DNA of 19,651 bases from a virus (lineage: Duplodnaviria > Heunggongvirae > Uroviricota > Caudoviricetes): the IMG/VR virus record IMGVR_UViG_2563366883_000015; one strand, given 5' to 3'. The notes below the pieces were generated by a model. It did not search any database. It worked only from the letters and a program-made list of their open reading frames with translations, and was not told the origin of the DNA. Shown in pieces: positions 55-14,897 of this stretch (positions are counted from its first letter, which is position 1; every line of letters starts with the position of its first letter). Made by a program: the position numbers and the translations under genes.

Positions 55-639
55 TTACTCCCTGACAGGGTTCGTAGGCCACTCAATATCAGGTGCAGTT
101 GATGTATCAACACGGTTCAGCAACACCCGATACTTTTTCCAGGCTTCCAGCAATGAGGTTTCTTCCTCCGTTGCGATTTCCAGATCCACAGCATCCTGAA
201 GTGGCGCAATATGCTCACTGGCTACCTGCATCAGGCTGTTTTTTGTTTCTTCCGCCTCTCGGATCCGGAACAGTTTTTCTGCTTCTGCATCTTTCACCCA
301 GGCTGTGCCGTTCCACTTCTGAAACTCCCCTTCCGGCGATAACCAGGTAACATTTTCCGGTAACGGACCGAGTTCAGAAATAAATAACGCGTCCCCTGAA
401 GCTACGTCATAAACCGTTTTACCCCGATGGTCTTCAACGAGATGCCACGATGCCTCATCACTGTTGAAAACAGCCACGAAGCCTGCCGGAATATCTGGCG
501 GTGCAATATCGGTACTGTTTGCTGGCAGACCTGTATGAGGCGGAATATATGCATCACCTTCACCAATAAATTCATTAGTTCCGGCCAGCAGATTATAAAT
601 TTTTATGGTCCGTGGTTGTTCACTCATTCTGAATGCCAT
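55..639 (-). CDS. tfa: Tail fibre assembly protein Tfa (lambda Tfa-like chaperone)
   Basis: 194-aa ORF beginning [24 protein letters not shown]..., recalled as near-identical to lambda Tfa. Start ATG overlaps the stf stop (TAATG). Confidence 0.9.
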
Positions 640-3929: not shown

Positions 3930-4423
3930 TGTTGCCCCCACAAACAGACTTCACGCTCAATCTCACGACGAGTCATCAGGCCTTTCCATTGCTTACCGCC
4001 AGCGTATGTCCAGCGACGCAGCTGATCACATGCGCCTTTGATATCGCCCTGGTTTATTTTGCGAAGAAGCGTCGATGTTCTAAAATTGCCAGCACCCACG
4101 TTGTAAACGAATGAGTTAAGAGCGCCGCGCGTTGTTTCCGGTATATCGACTTTGATATACGGGTTAATTTGTCTGGCGACAGTGGCAAGGTCTTTATTCA
4201 AGAGTGCTTTGCATTCTGCTTTGGTATACGTTTTACCGAGCATGATGTCTTTTCCGGTGTGTCCGTGACATACAGTCCATACACCAACAATATCTTTGTA
4301 TGGTATGTAGCTGACACCTTCCAGACCATCGTTACCACTTGGGCCAGTGATTAACACTGATGCTATAGCAATTGCTCCGCCACCAATAGCAGCAGCAACG
4401 GCTTTTCGTAATGATGGAGGCAT
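3926..4423 (-). CDS. rrrD: SAR endolysin (phage lysozyme R, T4-lysozyme-like GH24 with N-terminal signal-anchor-release domain)
   Basis: 165 aa. N-terminal Gly/Ala-rich weakly hydrophobic segment [20 protein letters not shown] (SAR-like) followed by a lysozyme-like region (...[16 protein letters not shown]...). Start ATG overlaps the holin stop. Confidence 0.9.
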
Positions 4424-4638
4424 TATTCACCTCTCGCAGCCTTGCGCTTATCTTCTTTAATCTTGAAATAAAGGTTTGTCAGGTACGTCAGCAGGCCAAA
4501 TACCAGGCTACCCAGCACACCTATTGCTGCCCACTGTGAGGGAGTGACTTTATCGAGCAGCTGTAAAAACCAGTAACCGGCACTACCTGCTGAGGTGCCA
4601 TAGGCGACTCCAGTTGTTAACTTATCCATGAATTTCAT
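4423..4638 (-). CDS. essD: Class II holin (S21-type pinholin) with dual-start motif
   Basis: 71 aa from ATG 4638 ([26 protein letters not shown]...KAARGE), GAGGTGG RBS upstream. M-K-F-M is the antiholin/holin dual-start pattern. The ORF track extends to 4683. Confidence 0.85.
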
Positions 4639-5226
4639 AACCCCACCTCGCAGACAAAGCGGGTGTAAATTGAGGGAATACAACGTATCGCAAAAAAGCA
4701 GAAACGTAACTGACTCCGAGTCAGTGAATAACTCAGGTATTGAGTTATCAGCTAATATCGAGACTCAAAAAATGGAAAAACCAGCTCGACGGCGGGTTTA
4801 AGCTGTGTGACGAAGTAACCACTCTTAACAGCATAACCAATTTTTTACGTACGTAAACCACTGAATGATATTTATGAGAATGCTACCGAGTGTTCAAAAC
4901 ATCACCACAAATACATAAGAAAACTTCAACAAATAACCAATAAATAATTTCCAGTGTTATTTTTAGCTGGTTTAAATTAAACAGACGAATTATAGAACCA
5001 CCATAAATAACAGCCATTAATATAAATTAGCTAATAGATTTATTTTTGTTCAAATAAGAGCCATAAATAGGTTTCGATAGAAAAAGTTCAGATAAAAATA
5101 GAGATCTACTTCACAAATTAAATGAGAAACTAAAACTTACATCTTGAAATAATCACATTGATTAGATGAATATTTATCGCGCAGTGACATCATTTTTTAA
5201 TAATAGTTCAAAAAAAAGGGCTCACG

Positions 5227-6324
5227 ATGAAAAAATTAACAGTGGCAATTTCTGCTGTAGCTGCATCAGTACTGATGGCGATGTCTGCTCAGGCAGCTGA
5301 AATTTATAATAAAGACAGTAACAAGCTGGATCTGTACGGGAAAGTTAATGCCAAGCACTACTTTTCCTCTAACGATGCAGATGATGGTGATACTACTTAT
5401 GTTCGTCTGGGCTTCAAAGGCGAAACCCAAATCAACGATCAGCTGACTGGTTTCGGTCAGTGGGAATATGAATTCAAAGGCAACCGCGCTGAATCTCAAG
5501 GTTCCTCCAAAGACAAAACCCGTCTTGCATTTGCAGGCCTGAAATTCGGTGACTACGGCTCAATCGATTACGGCCGTAACTACGGTGTAGCATACGACAT
5601 CGGTGCGTGGACTGACGTTCTGCCAGAATTCGGTGGCGATACCTGGACCCAAACAGATGTGTTCATGACTGGTCGCACCACTGGTGTTGCAACCTATCGT
5701 AACAACGACTTCTTTGGTCTGGTTGATGGTCTGAACTTTGCTGCTCAGTACCAAGGCAAAAACGATCGTAGCGATTTCGATAACTACACCGAAGGTAACG
5801 GTGATGGCTTCGGTTTCTCTGCTACCTATGAATACGAAGGATTCGGTATCGGTGCAACTTATGCGAAATCTGATCGTACCGACACTCAAGTTAATGCAGG
5901 GAAAGTTCTTCCTGAAGTATTTGCTTCCGGTAAAAATGCAGAAGTTTGGGCCGCAGGTCTGAAATATGACGCTAACAACATTTACCTGGCCACTACCTAT
6001 TCTGAAACCCAGAATATGACTGTATTTGCTGATCACTTCGTTGCTAATAAAGCTCAAAACTTCGAAGCTGTTGCACAATATCAGTTCGATTTCGGTCTGC
6101 GTCCGTCCGTTGCTTACCTGCAATCTAAAGGTAAGGATCTTGGAGTATGGGGCGATCAGGACTTAGTCAAATATGTTGATGTAGGTGCAACCTATTACTT
6201 CAACAAAAATATGTCTACTTTCGTTGATTACAAAATCAACCTGCTTGACAAAAATGACTTCACTAAAGCACTCGGTGTAAGCACTGATGACATCGTTGCT
6301 GTAGGTCTGGTTTACCAGTTCTAA
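5227..6324 (+). CDS. nmpC: Prophage-encoded OmpC/OmpF-family general porin (NmpC/Lc-like)
   Basis: 365 aa with signal peptide [25 protein letters not shown] and porin C-terminus ...VAVGLVYQF. Antisense to the late operon between Q and S, as nmpC is in DLP12. Preceded by ~540 bp of AT-rich DNA. Confidence 0.9.
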
Positions 6325-6332
6325 TCTGATTA

Positions 6333-6374
6333 CGAAAAAGATATGTTGCGGGAGGCGTTGCCTCCCCAACATAT
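6333..6374 (-). terminator. Rho-independent terminator on the minus strand ~140 nt downstream of Q (tR'-like)
   Basis: Minus strand: ATATGTTGGGGAGG-CAACG-CCTCCCGCAACATAT followed by CTTTTTCG. Confidence 0.45.
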
Positions 6375-6451
6375 AAGTGGCTCCCTCAAGCCACTTCCTT
6401 TAGGAGCACAACCTTGCTTCTAACTATATAAACCTTCTGTTATATATTACC

Positions 6452-6487
6452 CTTTATTTTTGGGGGCGTTGCAACGCCCCATTTTTA
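6452..6487 (+). terminator. Rho-independent terminator between the convergent porin and Q genes
   Basis: 18-bp perfect palindrome GGGGCGTTGCAACGCCCC (6463-6480) followed by ATTTTTAAT on the plus strand, preceded by TTTATTTTT. Confidence 0.55.
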
Positions 6488-6513
6488 ATAACTTTCAGTA
6501 AACAATTGGCATA

Positions 6514-6897
6514 TTAATTAGAGTTATTAACAACGATATCCATCTCTAACCGGATATCTAATGCCATTAACATCCCTTCAATTATGCCCTCAGCCTTCTG
6601 TAACCTTTTCCCGATATAACCATCAGAGCAGCAATGCTTACCTGCCAGTGACATGAATGTCATACCGACTACATAATAATCTACTAATAAATCGTGCAAA
6701 TCGCTGTTGTTCTTTTTCAGACGGGCCATGCACCCGCAAATGATCATCGCGTCATCGTCACAACATTGCGGGCGAGATTTTACTTTTGAAGGAATTAATC
6801 CCTTAAAACCGGCGGCAATGGACGACCAGGTCACATCTTCATGATTATTAGCCGCCCACGCTCCCCAACGTTCAAGAACCATCTGAATATCACGCAT
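6514..6897 (-). CDS. quuD: Late-gene antiterminator Q (QuuD / phage 82-21 type)
   Basis: 127 aa from ATG 6897 ([24 protein letters not shown]...), GGAG 7 nt upstream. Cys-rich region [16 protein letters not shown]. Sits immediately upstream of the lysis cassette. Confidence 0.85.
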
Positions 6898-11881: not shown

Positions 11882-12238
11882 ACGTTCTGCAAGCTCGATA
11901 GATGGAATCTGCTCCAGCCTCTCATGCCGCAAACCAAGAGCATTGCGGTCAAATGTACGAATGTTGCTGCGCAGGCTTATTTAACAATGCGTCTGGAAGC
12001 CAGTGCCGTTTCTGGTCAGGCGATGGTGTCGGACAATCAGGATTTAGGTTTTATTGTCGCCGATCAGAACGATACGCCGATCACGCCTAACGATCTCAAT
12101 AGCGTTATTCCTTTCCGTCTGGATGCAGCTGCGGCAGCCAATGTCACACTTCGCGCCTGGCCTATCAGTATTACCGGTCAAAAACCGACCGAAGCGCCGT
12201 TTAGCGCGCTGGGGTATTTACGCGTCGATTATCAATGA
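11882..12238 (+). pseudogene. sfmH: sfmH fimbrial adhesin gene, 3' fragment only (5' end replaced by phage DNA)
   Basis: Frame encodes a fimbrial-subunit C-terminal strand (...LGYLRVDYQ) directly upstream of sfmF. In-frame stop at 11879. The N-terminal two thirds of a ~325-aa adhesin are absent. Confidence 0.6.
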
Positions 12239-12248
12239 GGTACGGAGA

Positions 12249-12764
12249 ATGAGAAGAGTATTCTTTAGCTGTTTCTGCGGGTTACTGTGGAGTTCCAGTG
12301 GATGGGCAGCTGACCCTTTAGGAACGATTAATATCAATTTGCACGGTAACGTTGTTGATTTCTCCTGTACCGTAAACACAGCGGATATTGATAAGACGGT
12401 AGATTTAGGCAGATGGCCTACGACACAACTACTGAACGCTGGCGATACCACGGCACTCGTCCCTTTTAGCCTGCGGCTGGAGGGATGTCCTCCGGGTTCA
12501 GTTGCGATTTTATTTACGGGAACGCCGGCATCTGATGCCAACCTGCTGGCTCTGGATGATCCCGCAATGGCACAAACCGTCGCCATCGAATTACGTAATA
12601 GCGATCGCTCCCGGCTCGCACTGGGGGAGGCGAGCCCGACTGAGGAAGTTGATGCAAATGGCAATGTCACACTAAACTTTTTTGCCAATTATCGAGCGTT
12701 AGCCAGCGGTGTTCGGCCAGGTGTGGCGAAAGCGGATGCGATATTTATGATCAATTATAATTAA
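12249..12764 (+). CDS. sfmF: Type 1-like fimbrial minor subunit SfmF
   Basis: 171 aa from ATG 12249 with signal peptide MRRVFFSCFCGLLWSSSGWA/ADP and fimbrial C-terminus; GAGG 8 nt upstream. The ORF track starts further upstream at 12054. Confidence 0.85.
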   Translation: MRRVFFSCFCGLLWSSSGWAADPLGTININLHGNVVDFSCTVNTADIDKTVDLGRWPTTQLLNAGDTTALVPFSLRLEGCPPGSVAILFTGTPASDANLLALDDPAMAQTVAIELRNSDRSRLALGEASPTEEVDANGNVTLNFFANYRALASGVRPGVAKADAIFMINYN

Positions 12765-12766
12765 TA

Positions 12767-13399
12767 TTATATTAATTCATATAATTTGGCGTAGTCGATG
12801 AGCTCTACAATTGAATGCAAACCTAGCTTGCCATAAATATTAGATTTATGCGCGCTAACTGTTTTATTGCTAAGTAATAACTTATCGGCAATTTCTTTAT
12901 TAGATAATCCGCTGACCAGATAACGTAATATCGTCACTTCACGATTAGATAGCACAGTGATCGTTGAACTATTCGTACTACATTTATTGCTTTTTATATA
13001 GTTGAGCGTTTCGCTGGGAAAAAAAGTGTATCCGGAGAGGATCATCTGAACGGCATGAAAAATATCATTCTGATCATTGCATTTACTGACAAAACCGTTA
13101 GCACCAGCTTGTATCGCTCTGCCAGCATAAAAGCATTCTGATTTCGATGATAAAAATAATACTTTCACTGTGCTCTGGATTTGTTTGATCCTTTTCAGGA
13201 AGGTAAAACCGTCTGTTCCGGGCAAGTCTATATCCATAATGATTAAATCAACAGGACGGGTTCGGAGATAATCGATGGTTATGCGGTAATCATCCGTTTT
13301 CAGGACAATCTGCAATTCACTGTTTTTTTGCAACAGAACTTCAATAGACATTCTGATGATAGGATGAGTATCCATAATGATCACCGACGTTGGTTTCAT
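12767..13399 (-). CDS. fimZ: LuxR/NarL-family response regulator FimZ
   Basis: 210 aa from ATG 13399 (MKPTSVIIMDTHPIIRMSIEVLL...): receiver domain plus C-terminal LuxR HTH, in the expected position between sfmF and argU. Confidence 0.9.
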   Translation of the reverse strand: MKPTSVIIMDTHPIIRMSIEVLLQKNSELQIVLKTDDYRITIDYLRTRPVDLIIMDIDLPGTDGFTFLKRIKQIQSTVKVLFLSSKSECFYAGRAIQAGANGFVSKCNDQNDIFHAVQMILSGYTFFPSETLNYIKSNKCSTNSSTITVLSNREVTILRYLVSGLSNKEIADKLLLSNKTVSAHKSNIYGKLGLHSIVELIDYAKLYELI

Positions 13400-13582
13400 A
13401 GTTACCAGTCTCATAGGAGCGGACAATTTTCCGTTAGGGCGGTAAATTGTACTTTGATACATGAAAATACGGGTTTTCTTGATTCAGACGCGCAGCGGTG
13501 TGCGTTTGTTTGCCGCTATAGCGAAATAAATCAGAAAATCAGACGCGGTCGTTCACTTGTTCAGCAACCAGATCAAAAGCCA

Positions 13583-13610
13583 TTGACTCAGCAAGGGTTG
13601 ACCGTATAAT
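13583..13610 (+). promoter_or_regulatory. Sigma70 promoter for the tRNA-Arg gene
   Basis: TTGACT (13583-13588), 16-bp spacer, TATAAT (13605-13610), ~30 bp upstream of the tRNA 5' end. Confidence 0.6.
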
Positions 13611-13641
13611 TCACGCGATTACACCGCATTGCGGTATCAAC

Positions 13642-13718
13642 GCGCCCTTAGCTCAGTTGGATAGAGCAACGACCTTCTAAGTCGTGGGCCGCAGGTTCGA
13701 ATCCTGCAGGGCGCGCCA
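13642..13718 (+). tRNA. argU: tRNA-Arg (anticodon UCU), encoded CCA end; prophage attachment site
   Basis: 77 nt GCGCCCTTAGCTCAGTTGGATAGAGCAACGACCTTCTAAGTCGTGGGCCGCAGGTTCGAATCCTGCAGGGCGCGCCA with clear cloverleaf; anticodon loop CTTCTAA. Confidence 0.95.
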
Positions 13719-13733
13719 TTACAATTCAATCAG

Positions 13734-14897
13734 TTACGCCTTCTTTATATCCTCCATAATTCCAGAGTGGGACATATTTGGGACATTATCACCAAAAATG
13801 TCGTCTATTTTCCTCGCATGCTCTGTCAAATGATTAGGCGCAAGGTGAGCATACCTACGAACCATTTCTATGGACTCCCATCCGCCCATTTCCTGAAGCA
13901 CTGATAATGGGACGCCTGACTGAATCAGCCAGCTTGCCCAGGTGTGTCTGAGGTCATGGAAACGGAAATCTTCAATTCCTGCACGACGACAAGCTGATAG
14001 CCATGATGTCTTGCTGTCGATGCGCATCTTCCTGACCGCAGGCGTTGATGTTCCATCTGCTCGCTTAGCCGCCTTGGTATGTACAAACACCCATTTGTGA
14101 TGCTTGCCTATTTGATCACGCAACACTTTACAGGCGGTATCGTTCAGCGCCACACCAATGGCGCGGTTTGATTTGCTCTCTTCTGGATTCACCCAGGCAA
14201 CTCGTCGCTGCATGTCGATTTGTTGCCATTCCAGATTTATGATGTTCGACTTTCTCAGACCAGTTGCCAGCGCAAACTTGACGACAGATTTCAGTGGTTC
14301 GGGGCACTCATCAATAAGGCGTTTTGCTTCCTCCTTTTCCAGCCATCTGACTCGCTTGTTTCTGACCGCTGGTATCTTGATGACAGGCGCTTTTTCCAGC
14401 CACTTCCAGTCGCGTTCTGCAGCACGGAGAATGGCCTTTATCATGGCAAGATGCTTTGCCTTTGTCTGAGTTGATACTGGCTTTGGTTCATAAACAGGCG
14501 GTTCTTTACCTTTCCTGATGGCGGCCCGAACTTTCTGTTTCCATATTTCTTTCGTCTTTCTGTTATGCATTCTGCTTACAGCAGAGTAAATCTTTGCCTC
14601 CGAGATATCTTTAAGCCTTATACCCTCAAAATGTTCAAGCCAGAACTCAATCCGGCTTTTATCTGAATCGAGAGATTTTTTATCAGCCTTTTCCTCAAGC
14701 CATCTTAGGCAGGCCTCTTCAAAAGTGACATCAGGTAAATCCCCTAGCTTTTCTACTCGCCAGAGTTCTGCTTTTCGCTTGTCGTGCAACTCCTGAGCTT
14801 GCCGCTTGTCCTTTGTGCCAAGAGATTCCTTAATTCGTTTCCCGCCCGGGAGCGAATACGAGGCATACCATATTTCATTTCTGCGGAAGAGTGACAT
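13734..14897 (-). CDS. intD: Tyrosine site-specific integrase (DLP12 IntD-like)
   Basis: 387 aa [35 protein letters not shown]... with catalytic motifs ...HDLRHTWAS... and ...VRRYAHL...; GAGGA RBS. Confidence 0.95.

What the first reader, a model, noticed from the sequence alone, without database searches (positions are those of the whole stretch)
6325..6513. Compact antisense control region between Q and the porin gene: tR'-like terminator, bidirectional palindrome and possible IpeX-like sRNA
Within ~190 bp between the Q stop and the porin stop there are three hairpins: a minus-strand terminator (6333-6374), a second stem (6376-6397), and an 18-bp perfect palindrome with T-tracts (6463-6487). 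Late transcription from a promoter beside Q would have to cross the first terminator and then run antisense through the whole porin gene to reach S-R-Rz. The porin 3' region with the plus-strand terminator corresponds to where the IpeX sRNA is described in DLP12. Late transcripts and a porin-derived sRNA therefore overlap in antisense.
Basis: partly seen in the sequence, partly recalled or inferred. Interest (0 to 1): 0.45.

Follow-up and report, generated by a model that had tools for sequence, protein, structure and literature searches.

The report
Known IpeX porin 3' UTR, not tR'
The 189-bp gap between the prophage Q gene and the porin gene is the already described IpeX region (the structured tail of the porin transcript), and the Q-dependent late promoter most likely lies on the far side of the porin gene, so late transcripts probably do not cross this gap.

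Summary
The three hairpins are real: 6341-6374, 6375-6396 and the palindrome 6463-6480. The 189-bp spacer is 98% identical to the quuD-nmpC spacer of K-12 prophage DLP12 and 97% identical to the sequence after lc in phage PA-2, which is the published ipeX locus. It occurs in about 46% of complete E. coli genomes.

Published Term-seq data for K-12 place strong RNA 3' ends on the porin strand at positions matching window 6486/6487 and 6377. None is listed on the Q strand.

The palindrome has T-runs on both sides of the plus strand. It is therefore a porin-strand terminator only, not a bidirectional one.

The proposed "late promoter beside Q with tR'" is not supported. The segment homologous to the mapped pR' of phage 933W, whose Q is 79% identical, lies at 4858-4776 on the minus strand, next to the holin gene. 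Its motif GTTTACNNNCGTAAAAA occurs once per locus, always beyond the porin.

Porin plus ipeX is therefore a reverse-oriented insert between Q and pR'. Q-modified late transcripts do not run antisense to it. The minus-strand hairpin with U5 most plausibly stops transcripts leaving Q. This is a known element and of low interest.

The parts
5227..6324 (+). Porin gene of the Lc/NmpC type, 365 aa, intact.
   Evidence: ORF list. Pfam Porin_1, E 1.8e-156, full length. Annotated as porin/OmpD in identical genomes and phages.
6325..6487 (+). Porin 3' UTR, which is the IpeX RNA region (about 162-167 nt). It holds four well-supported stem-loops and one AU-only stem.
   Evidence: 98% identical to the K-12 DLP12 spacer and 97.4% to PA-2. 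Fold z = -8.0. K-12 Term-seq 3' ends at 574367/574366 map to window 6486/6487. IpeX is described as 167 nt and part of the porin transcript.
6341..6374 (.). Hairpin 1: a 15-bp stem with one bulge. On the plus strand it is a stable structure with an RNA 3' end 3 nt downstream. On the minus strand it is followed by a U5 run and is the candidate terminator for transcripts leaving Q.
   Evidence: -23.3 kcal/mol on plus, -21.3 on minus. K-12 Term-seq 3' end at 574476 maps to window 6377 on the porin strand. In 87 loci only the bulge and loop vary at appreciable frequency; one stem position (6353, A to G) differs in 2 of 87.
6335..6339 (-). U5 run after hairpin 1 on the minus strand. It ends 11 nt before the porin stop codon. 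About 40% of related loci have U4 instead.
   Evidence: Sequence. Variants CTTTTTCG and CTTTTAG.
6375..6396 (+). Hairpin 2: an 8-bp stem with a 6-nt loop.
   Evidence: Essentially invariant in 87 loci: no variant seen in two or more of them, only two single-locus differences.
6400..6423 (+). Hairpin 3: a 9-bp stem. The 6404 G/A polymorphism gives G-U or A-U on the plus strand, but A-C or A-U on the minus strand.
   Evidence: G in 28 loci, A in 59.
6463..6486 (+). Rho-independent terminator of the porin/IpeX transcript: the palindrome 6463-6480 plus U5 at 6482-6486. It works on one strand only.
   Evidence: Terminator scan, fold, K-12 Term-seq 3' end at the last U. The loop bases vary among loci and the stem is nearly invariant (6469 differs in 3 of 87).
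6514..6897 (-). Q antiterminator of the QuuD type, 127 aa. Homology to 933W and Lambda_2E9 Q genes breaks after the codons LEMD, at 6538-6533.
   Evidence: Pfam PF06530, E 8.5e-54. Match to Q21 structures 6P18/6JNX, E 7.6e-8. 79-82% identical to the Q proteins of Stx phages. Breakpoints.
4776..4858 (-). pR' module, the Q-dependent late promoter. -35 TTTACG at 4857-4852, 16-nt spacer, -10 TATGCT at 4835-4830, inferred start about 4825-4823, conserved AAGAGTGGTTAC, then a promoter-proximal hairpin with a T-run.
   Evidence: 76% identity over 83 nt to the 933W pR' region, E 8e-11, collinear with the Q homology. 933W record annotation. The 933W-type pR' start was mapped by dRNA-seq (PMC7547250). 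The motif is unique in the window and occurs once per locus in 84 of 90 loci.
4690..4748 (-). Two hairpins (4748-4728 and 4725-4709) and a T-rich tail (4702-4690) about 100 nt upstream of the holin start. This is the candidate tR' region.
   Evidence: Variation among loci.
4423..4638 (-). Holin S (EssD type, 71 aa), the first late gene. It is followed by the lysozyme gene (4423-3926) and Rz (3941-3468).
   Evidence: Pfam Phage_holin_2_1, Phage_lysozyme and Phage_lysis.

Best explanation
The spacer 6325-6513 is the 3' untranslated tail of the prophage porin gene, which is the ipeX locus of DLP12 and PA-2.

On the plus strand, transcription from the porin promoter reads through hairpins 1-3 and stops at the palindrome-plus-U5 terminator (3' end about 6486). 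This gives a highly structured tail of about 162-167 nt. The literature describes that tail as a processed RNA that lowers OmpC and OmpF.

On the minus strand, the only canonical terminator is hairpin 1 plus U5, placed 11 nt before the porin reading frame. It most plausibly stops transcripts that leave Q and keeps them out of the convergent porin gene. This step is inferred.

The whole block from about 6532 to 4859 is a reverse-oriented insert (a moron) between Q and its late promoter. It holds a new Q C-terminus, the spacer, the porin gene and the porin upstream region. The late promoter pR' sits at 4858-4776, directly upstream of the holin gene. Q acts there, so Q-modified late transcription does not cross the porin gene or the spacer.
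For: Identity with the ipeX locus:
- 98% identical to K-12 and 97.4% to PA-2.
- Present in 2510 of 5426 complete E. coli genomes.
- Literature description of IpeX.

Plus-strand RNA:
- Fold z = -8.0, against -5.2 for the minus strand.
- K-12 Term-seq 3' ends on the porin strand map to window 6486/6487 (scores 46656 and 66408) and 6377 (score 23469). None is listed on the Q strand at 5743xx-5745xx.
- Variable positions fall mainly in loops, the bulge and linkers: 3 of 78 stem positions against 13 of 111 others.

Location of pR':
- Two collinear homology blocks to 933W: Q at 6897-6565, and the pR' region at 4858-4776 matching AF125520 20665-20746. The 933W record annotates pR' there.
- The start site of this promoter type was mapped 258 nt upstream of the tR' 3' end.
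- GTTTACNNNCGTAAAAA occurs once per locus on the Q strand. It sits at the Q stop in 933W and about 1645 nt downstream of the Q stop in K-12 and the IMG/VR loci that reach far enough. In PA-2, whose record holds no Q gene, it sits on the far side of lc. In Lambda_2E9 it lies about 1900 nt downstream, behind other inserted genes.
- A review states that the DLP12 lysis operon is under the control of the phage Q-type antiterminator.
Against: - No transcript mapping exists for this exact prophage. The pR' assignment rests on homology to 933W. The candidate pause element is weaker here (TACTTC against TACATT in 933W).
- K-12 Term-seq lists no 3' end for a short pR'-tR' RNA upstream of essD either, so activity of that promoter in K-12 is not shown by these data.
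- Weak promoter-like hexamers, 8 of 12 matches, the same score as the pR' homologue, exist on the minus strand of the spacer: TTGCAA-19-TAATAT and GTAATA-16-TATAGT.
- Use of hairpin 1 as a minus-strand terminator is untested, and about 40% of loci have only U4.
- Sequence diversity is too low for real covariation support.
Confidence: 0.75

Rival explanations
1. pR' lies immediately downstream of Q inside the spacer, hairpin 1 (6341-6374) is tR', and Q-modified late transcripts run antisense through ipeX and the whole porin gene to reach S-R-Rz.
For: - Lambda and 933W have pR' directly after Q.
- Hairpin 1 plus U5 looks like a terminator on the Q strand.
- Weak promoter-like hexamers lie upstream of it.
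Against: - The spacer has no homology to the pR' of the 79%-identical 933W Q. That homology lies at 4858-4776 instead.
- The pR' motif occurs once per locus, always beyond the porin.
- No Q-strand 3' end appears at hairpin 1 in K-12 Term-seq.
- A 10-bp deletion between the terminator and the Q stop occurs in strain STEC346.
Confidence: 0.07
2. The hairpins serve only the plus-strand RNA, for porin mRNA stability and IpeX structure. The minus-strand U5 is then incidental: it is merely the complement of an A-run that pairs with the U-run upstream of the terminator to close the IpeX fold. Transcripts leaving Q would be stopped by Rho or by collision instead.
For: - In the plus-strand minimum-energy fold, 6333-6338 pairs with 6457-6462.
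- The plus strand folds better than the minus strand.
- The G-U/A-U polymorphism in hairpin 3 fits the plus strand only.
- The U-run is U4 in about 40% of loci.
Against: - The 6334/6335 variants also disturb that long-range helix.
- Lambda_2E9 has an unrelated Q-strand intrinsic terminator at the same relative place, just before its own convergent inserted gene. This suggests such a terminator is needed there.
Confidence: 0.25
3. An independent minus-strand promoter inside the spacer (for example TTGCAA-19-TAATAT) makes a roughly 100-nt RNA that ends at hairpin 1 and acts as an anti-IpeX antisense RNA.
For: Hexamers matching 8 of 12 positions (9 of 12 in K-12, which has TTGAGA) followed by a terminator-like hairpin.
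Against: - The 19-nt spacer is unfavourable.
- The -35 candidate lies in the variable loop of the palindrome.
- No Q-strand 3' end appears in K-12 Term-seq under three growth conditions.
Confidence: 0.05

Closest known systems
IpeX, the 3' UTR-derived RNA of nmpC (DLP12) and lc (phage PA-2) (Castillo-Keller et al. 2006, J Bacteriol; cited from memory and through PMC12197685, PMC5069750, PMC3333887)
   Same: Same position (directly after the porin stop), same strand, 97-98% sequence identity, same terminator, same neighbouring genes (QuuD-type Q and an Lc/NmpC-type porin).
   Different: There are five substitutions relative to K-12. Two lie in the terminator loop and make the palindrome perfect. 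The porin gene is intact here, whereas IS5 interrupts it in K-12.
The lambdoid Q / pR' / pause element / tR' late cassette, as mapped in 933W-type Stx phages (StxS; PMC7547250) and as solved structurally for Q21 (bioRxiv 10.1101/651190)
   Same: The Q protein belongs to PF06530, the Q21 family, and is 79% identical to 933W Q. A homologous pR' segment exists in the window.
   Different: That segment is 1.65 kb away from Q, at 4858-4776, not in the spacer. The 74-nt StxS part of the 933W transcript has no counterpart in the window.
Reverse-oriented lysogenic-conversion inserts (morons) in the late region of lambdoid phages, such as bor in lambda and blc in Lambda_2E9
   Same: A self-contained gene with its own promoter and terminator, inserted in the opposite orientation to the flanking phage genes. 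The junction with Q is at the same codon as in Lambda_2E9.
   Different: Here the insert separates Q from its own target promoter, and its 3' UTR has acquired a regulatory RNA function.

Membership tests
IpeX (porin 3' UTR RNA of DLP12/PA-2) | Lies directly 3' of the stop codon of an nmpC/lc-type prophage porin, on the same strand. | tested here: met
   Porin stop at 6324, spacer 6325-6513.
IpeX (porin 3' UTR RNA of DLP12/PA-2) | Sequence identity with the K-12 DLP12 nmpC-quuD spacer and with the sequence after lc in PA-2. | tested here: met
   266 of 271 positions identical to K-12. 97.4% over 189 nt to J02580 (PA-2).
IpeX (porin 3' UTR RNA of DLP12/PA-2) | Ends at a Rho-independent terminator, with a length of about 167 nt. 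| tested here: met
   Terminator 6463-6486. K-12 Term-seq 3' end maps to 6486/6487, 162-163 nt after the stop. The 167-nt length comes from PMC12197685.
IpeX (porin 3' UTR RNA of DLP12/PA-2) | Lowers OmpC and OmpF expression. | not testable with these tools
   Known only from the literature.
Q-dependent late cassette (pR' - pause element - tR') located in the spacer | A promoter with a Q-binding element directly downstream of Q, homologous to the pR' of related Q proteins. | tested here: not met
   The spacer has no homology to 933W pR'. The strict promoter scan finds nothing there. The homologous segment is at 4858-4776.
Q-dependent late cassette (pR' - pause element - tR') located in the spacer | A short constitutive transcript that ends at tR'. 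| tested here: not met
   No Q-strand 3' end is listed at positions equivalent to 6335 in K-12 Term-seq. This holds for K-12 only, under three growth conditions.
Bidirectional intrinsic terminator | An A-run upstream and a T-run downstream of the hairpin, so that each strand has a U-tract after the stem. | tested here: not met
   The plus strand reads T5-hairpin-T5 and the minus strand reads A5-hairpin-A5. The scan calls only the plus strand.
StxS-type sRNA derived from pR' | Sequence similarity to the 258-nt or 74-nt StxS RNA. | tested here: not met
   The only match in the window's Q-to-lysis region is a 13-nt stretch at 4827-4815, inside the pR' homologue. The only other match is a second 13-nt hit at the same chance-level score (E 0.069) at 12631-12619, outside that region. 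Nothing matches in the spacer.

The most novel reading that the evidence does not exclude
The two convergent terminators are crossed. The porin/IpeX RNA ends at 6486 and Q transcripts would end at about 6335, so the 3' ends of the Q mRNA and of the porin/IpeX RNA would be perfectly complementary over about 150 nt. This could work like the OOP/cII antisense pair of lambda. In a lysogen, abundant IpeX would destabilise stray Q mRNA and so protect lysogeny. On induction, the Q transcript would titrate IpeX. Such a link between a conversion gene and the lysis switch has not been described as far as I know.
Probability: 0.1. Interest if true: 0.5.

Novelty: already known. Interest (0 to 1): 0.15.

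Why it matters
There is little new here. The element is the published ipeX locus, it is very common in E. coli, and RefSeq simply does not annotate it (one search lists "none" under the match in all but one listed row, and that row is a partial match). The useful correction is architectural. In DLP12/PA-2-type prophages the porin-ipeX block separates Q from its late promoter, so models in which late transcription collides with the porin gene are unfounded. Any antisense interplay would involve the 3' end of the Q mRNA instead.

Tried and rejected
- Rfam, at gathering and permissive thresholds, has no family for the spacer.
- The original IpeX paper and the DLP12 Q papers (Castillo-Keller 2006, Toba 2011) are not held in the library. 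Rueggeberg 2013 has no PMC id in the reference list I consulted and did not turn up in the library searches. They are cited from memory or through reviews.
- Transcription-start data sets gave nothing for this locus. Thomason 2015 is not held. The Cappable-seq and SMRT-Cappable-seq supplements had no matching coordinates. No supplements are held for Conway 2014 or Sy 2020.
- A scan of one genome per species for the junction of hairpins 1 and 2 found only E. coli and one likely contaminant contig. No diverged homologues were available, so a covariation test was not meaningful.
- The apparent module boundary at position 167 in strain STEC346 turned out to be a 10-bp deletion.
- A direct alignment of the spacer with the region downstream of Q in 933W showed no homology.
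- I considered TTTACT near the Q stop as the -35 of a 933W-like promoter. I rejected it because no -10 element lies at a workable distance.

Full report
**Context.** The window carries a lambdoid late-control region on the minus strand.
- Q (QuuD type, 127 aa) lies at 6897-6514. It matches Pfam PF06530 and is distantly related to the structurally solved Q21.
- A porin gene of the Lc/NmpC type lies at 5227-6324 on the plus strand.
- The holin, lysozyme and Rz genes lie at 4638-3468 on the minus strand.
- The finding concerns the 189 bp between the convergent stop codons of the porin gene and Q.

**Observation.** All three hairpins exist.
- Hairpin 1 is 6341-6374: 15 bp with one bulged C, -23.3 kcal/mol on the plus strand and -21.3 on the minus strand.
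- Hairpin 2 is 6375-6396.
- The third is the perfect 18-nt palindrome 6463-6480.
- A further 9-bp stem (6400-6423) and an AU-only stem appear in the fold.
- The 167-nt plus-strand RNA folds far better than shuffled sequence (z = -8.0). The minus strand gives z = -5.2.
- On the minus strand hairpin 1 is followed by C-U5.
- The palindrome is flanked by T5 on both sides of the plus strand. The minus strand therefore has A-runs, and only the plus strand carries a canonical terminator. "Bidirectional" is incorrect.

**Identity.**
- The spacer differs from the K-12 DLP12 quuD-nmpC spacer at 5 of 271 aligned positions. Two of those lie in the palindrome loop.
- It is 97.4% identical to the sequence after lc in phage PA-2. 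It also occurs in a 434 derivative that picked up the DLP12 segment.
- It is present in 2510 of 5426 complete E. coli genomes, almost always unannotated, and in 36 phage records. A scan of one genome per species found it only in E. coli, apart from one likely contaminant contig.
- This is the ipeX locus. IpeX is described as a 167-nt RNA of DLP12 that is made from the porin promoter as part of the porin transcript, is processed, and lowers OmpC and OmpF (PMC12197685; PMC5069750; PMC3333887).
- Rfam has no model for it.

**Experimental support from the literature.** The curated Term-seq table of Adams et al. 2021 for MG1655 lists 3' ends on the nmpC strand.
- Ends at 574367/574366 have scores 46656 and 66408. 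They map to window 6486/6487, the last U of the terminator.
- An end at 574476 has score 23469. It maps to window 6377, 3 nt after hairpin 1. There is no U-run there, so it is probably a processed or trimmed end.
- No end on the Q strand is listed in 5743xx-5745xx.
- The Rho table of the same paper lists a read-through region ending inside the 3' end of Q (574331).

**Variation.** Across 87 related loci, 16 of 189 positions vary. Only 3 of these fall among the 78 nucleotides of stems 1, 2, 3 and the terminator, and 13 fall among the other 111.
- One of the three stem variants is G-U versus A-U in hairpin 3. That change fits the plus strand only.
- Overall diversity is too low for a formal covariation test.

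**Where the late promoter is.** The Q protein is 79-82% identical to the Q proteins of 933W-type Stx phages.
- In those phages pR' overlaps the Q stop (933W annotation). Its start site was mapped by dRNA-seq 258 nt upstream of the tR' 3' end (PMC7547250).
- The spacer in the window has no similarity to that region.
- BLAST instead finds two collinear blocks: the body of Q (6897-6565), and an 83-nt block at 4858-4776 on the minus strand that is 76% identical to the 933W pR' region, E 8e-11.
- The aligned promoter elements are -35 TTTACG, a 16-nt spacer, -10 TATGCT (TATCAT in 933W), AAGAGTGGTTAC around the start, and a promoter-proximal hairpin with a T-run.
- The motif GTTTACNNNCGTAAAAA is unique in the window. 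It occurs exactly once, on the Q strand, in 84 of the 90 loci held.
  - In 933W it sits at the Q stop.
  - In K-12 and the IMG/VR loci that reach far enough it sits about 1645 nt after the Q stop.
  - In PA-2, whose record holds no Q gene, it sits on the far side of lc.
  - In Lambda_2E9 it sits about 1900 nt after the Q stop, behind other inserted genes (blc and a ybgA-like gene).
- Q homology among the three lineages breaks at the same codon, after LEMD (window 6538-6533).
- Homology resumes exactly at GTTTAC.

The 1.67-kb block 6532-4859 is therefore a reverse-oriented insert between Q and pR'. A review states that the DLP12 lysis operon is under the control of the Q-type antiterminator. 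From memory, Rueggeberg et al. 2013 also reported that the DLP12 Q acts on, and binds, the promoter fragment upstream of essD.

**Consequence for the finding.** Q-modified late transcription starts downstream of the porin gene and never crosses it or the spacer.
- The minus-strand hairpin 1 plus U5 cannot be tR' of that promoter.
- Its most plausible role is to stop transcripts leaving Q just before they would enter the porin frame in antisense. This is inferred.
- Lambda_2E9 has an unrelated Q-strand terminator at the equivalent place, before its own convergent inserted gene, which supports that role.
- The U-run could also be incidental. It is the complement of an A-run that pairs with the U-run upstream of the terminator in the IpeX fold.
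- Weak promoter-like hexamers do exist in the spacer, so an internal minus-strand promoter cannot be fully excluded. Nothing supports one, however.

**Verdict.** The tR', late-transcript and bidirectional-terminator parts are not supported. The element is ordinary and published, so interest is low. The one untested idea worth recording is that the crossed convergent terminators make the Q mRNA 3' end and IpeX complementary over about 150 nt, which could couple porin/IpeX expression to Q expression.

Noticed in passing
window 4776-4858 (minus strand): This is the late promoter module homologous to 933W pR'. Its -35 region lies in a 14-bp perfect palindrome, TTTACGTACGTAAA. 933W has TTTACGATCGTAAA, which is also perfect, and Lambda_2E9 has TTTACAATCGTAAA. 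Homology among the three lineages starts exactly at GTTTAC, so this block is a candidate Q-binding element.
   Followed up: partly
window 4686-4803 (minus strand); loci L001-L082: There are two haplotypes of the region between pR' and the holin gene. The window and PA-2 carry a weakened promoter-proximal hairpin (GCTGG, -5.8 kcal/mol) together with a perfect second palindrome, ACTGACTCGGAGTCAGT. K-12 and about half of the loci carry an intact first hairpin (GCGGG, -10.7 kcal/mol) together with an imperfect second one. K-12 also lacks 16 nt of the T-rich tail.
   Followed up: partly
window 6163-6372 (minus strand): This 69-aa ORF is annotated as ORF1 in the PA-2 record and as a hypothetical protein in 434B. 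It overlaps hairpin 1 and the porin 3' end in antisense. A 1-nt indel at 6334 in 35 of 87 loci would shift its frame, so it is probably not a gene.
   Followed up: partly
window 6489-6498; L091 (strain STEC346): One E. coli strain has a 10-bp deletion between the IpeX terminator and the Q stop, which shows that this stretch is dispensable.
   Followed up: yes
L089/L090 (phage Lambda_2E9): A Q protein 88% identical to this one is followed by different inserted genes (blc in reverse orientation, then a ybgA-like gene) before the pR'-like motif. An intrinsic terminator on the Q strand lies about 150 nt after Q, and its stem resembles the 933W tR'/StxS terminator.
   Followed up: partly
window 12054-14897: This stretch holds a fimbrial-protein ORF, a FimZ-like response regulator, tRNA-Arg(TCT) at 13642-13718 and an integrase at 13737-14897 (minus strand), as at the K-12 argU/DLP12 attachment site. 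The Q-porin-lysis block, however, lies to the left of these genes and reads away from them. This is not collinear with K-12, so the window holds either two elements or a rearrangement.
   Followed up: no
window 98-296 (minus strand): Full-length Rfam match to IS009 (RF02111), 225.8 bits.
   Followed up: no
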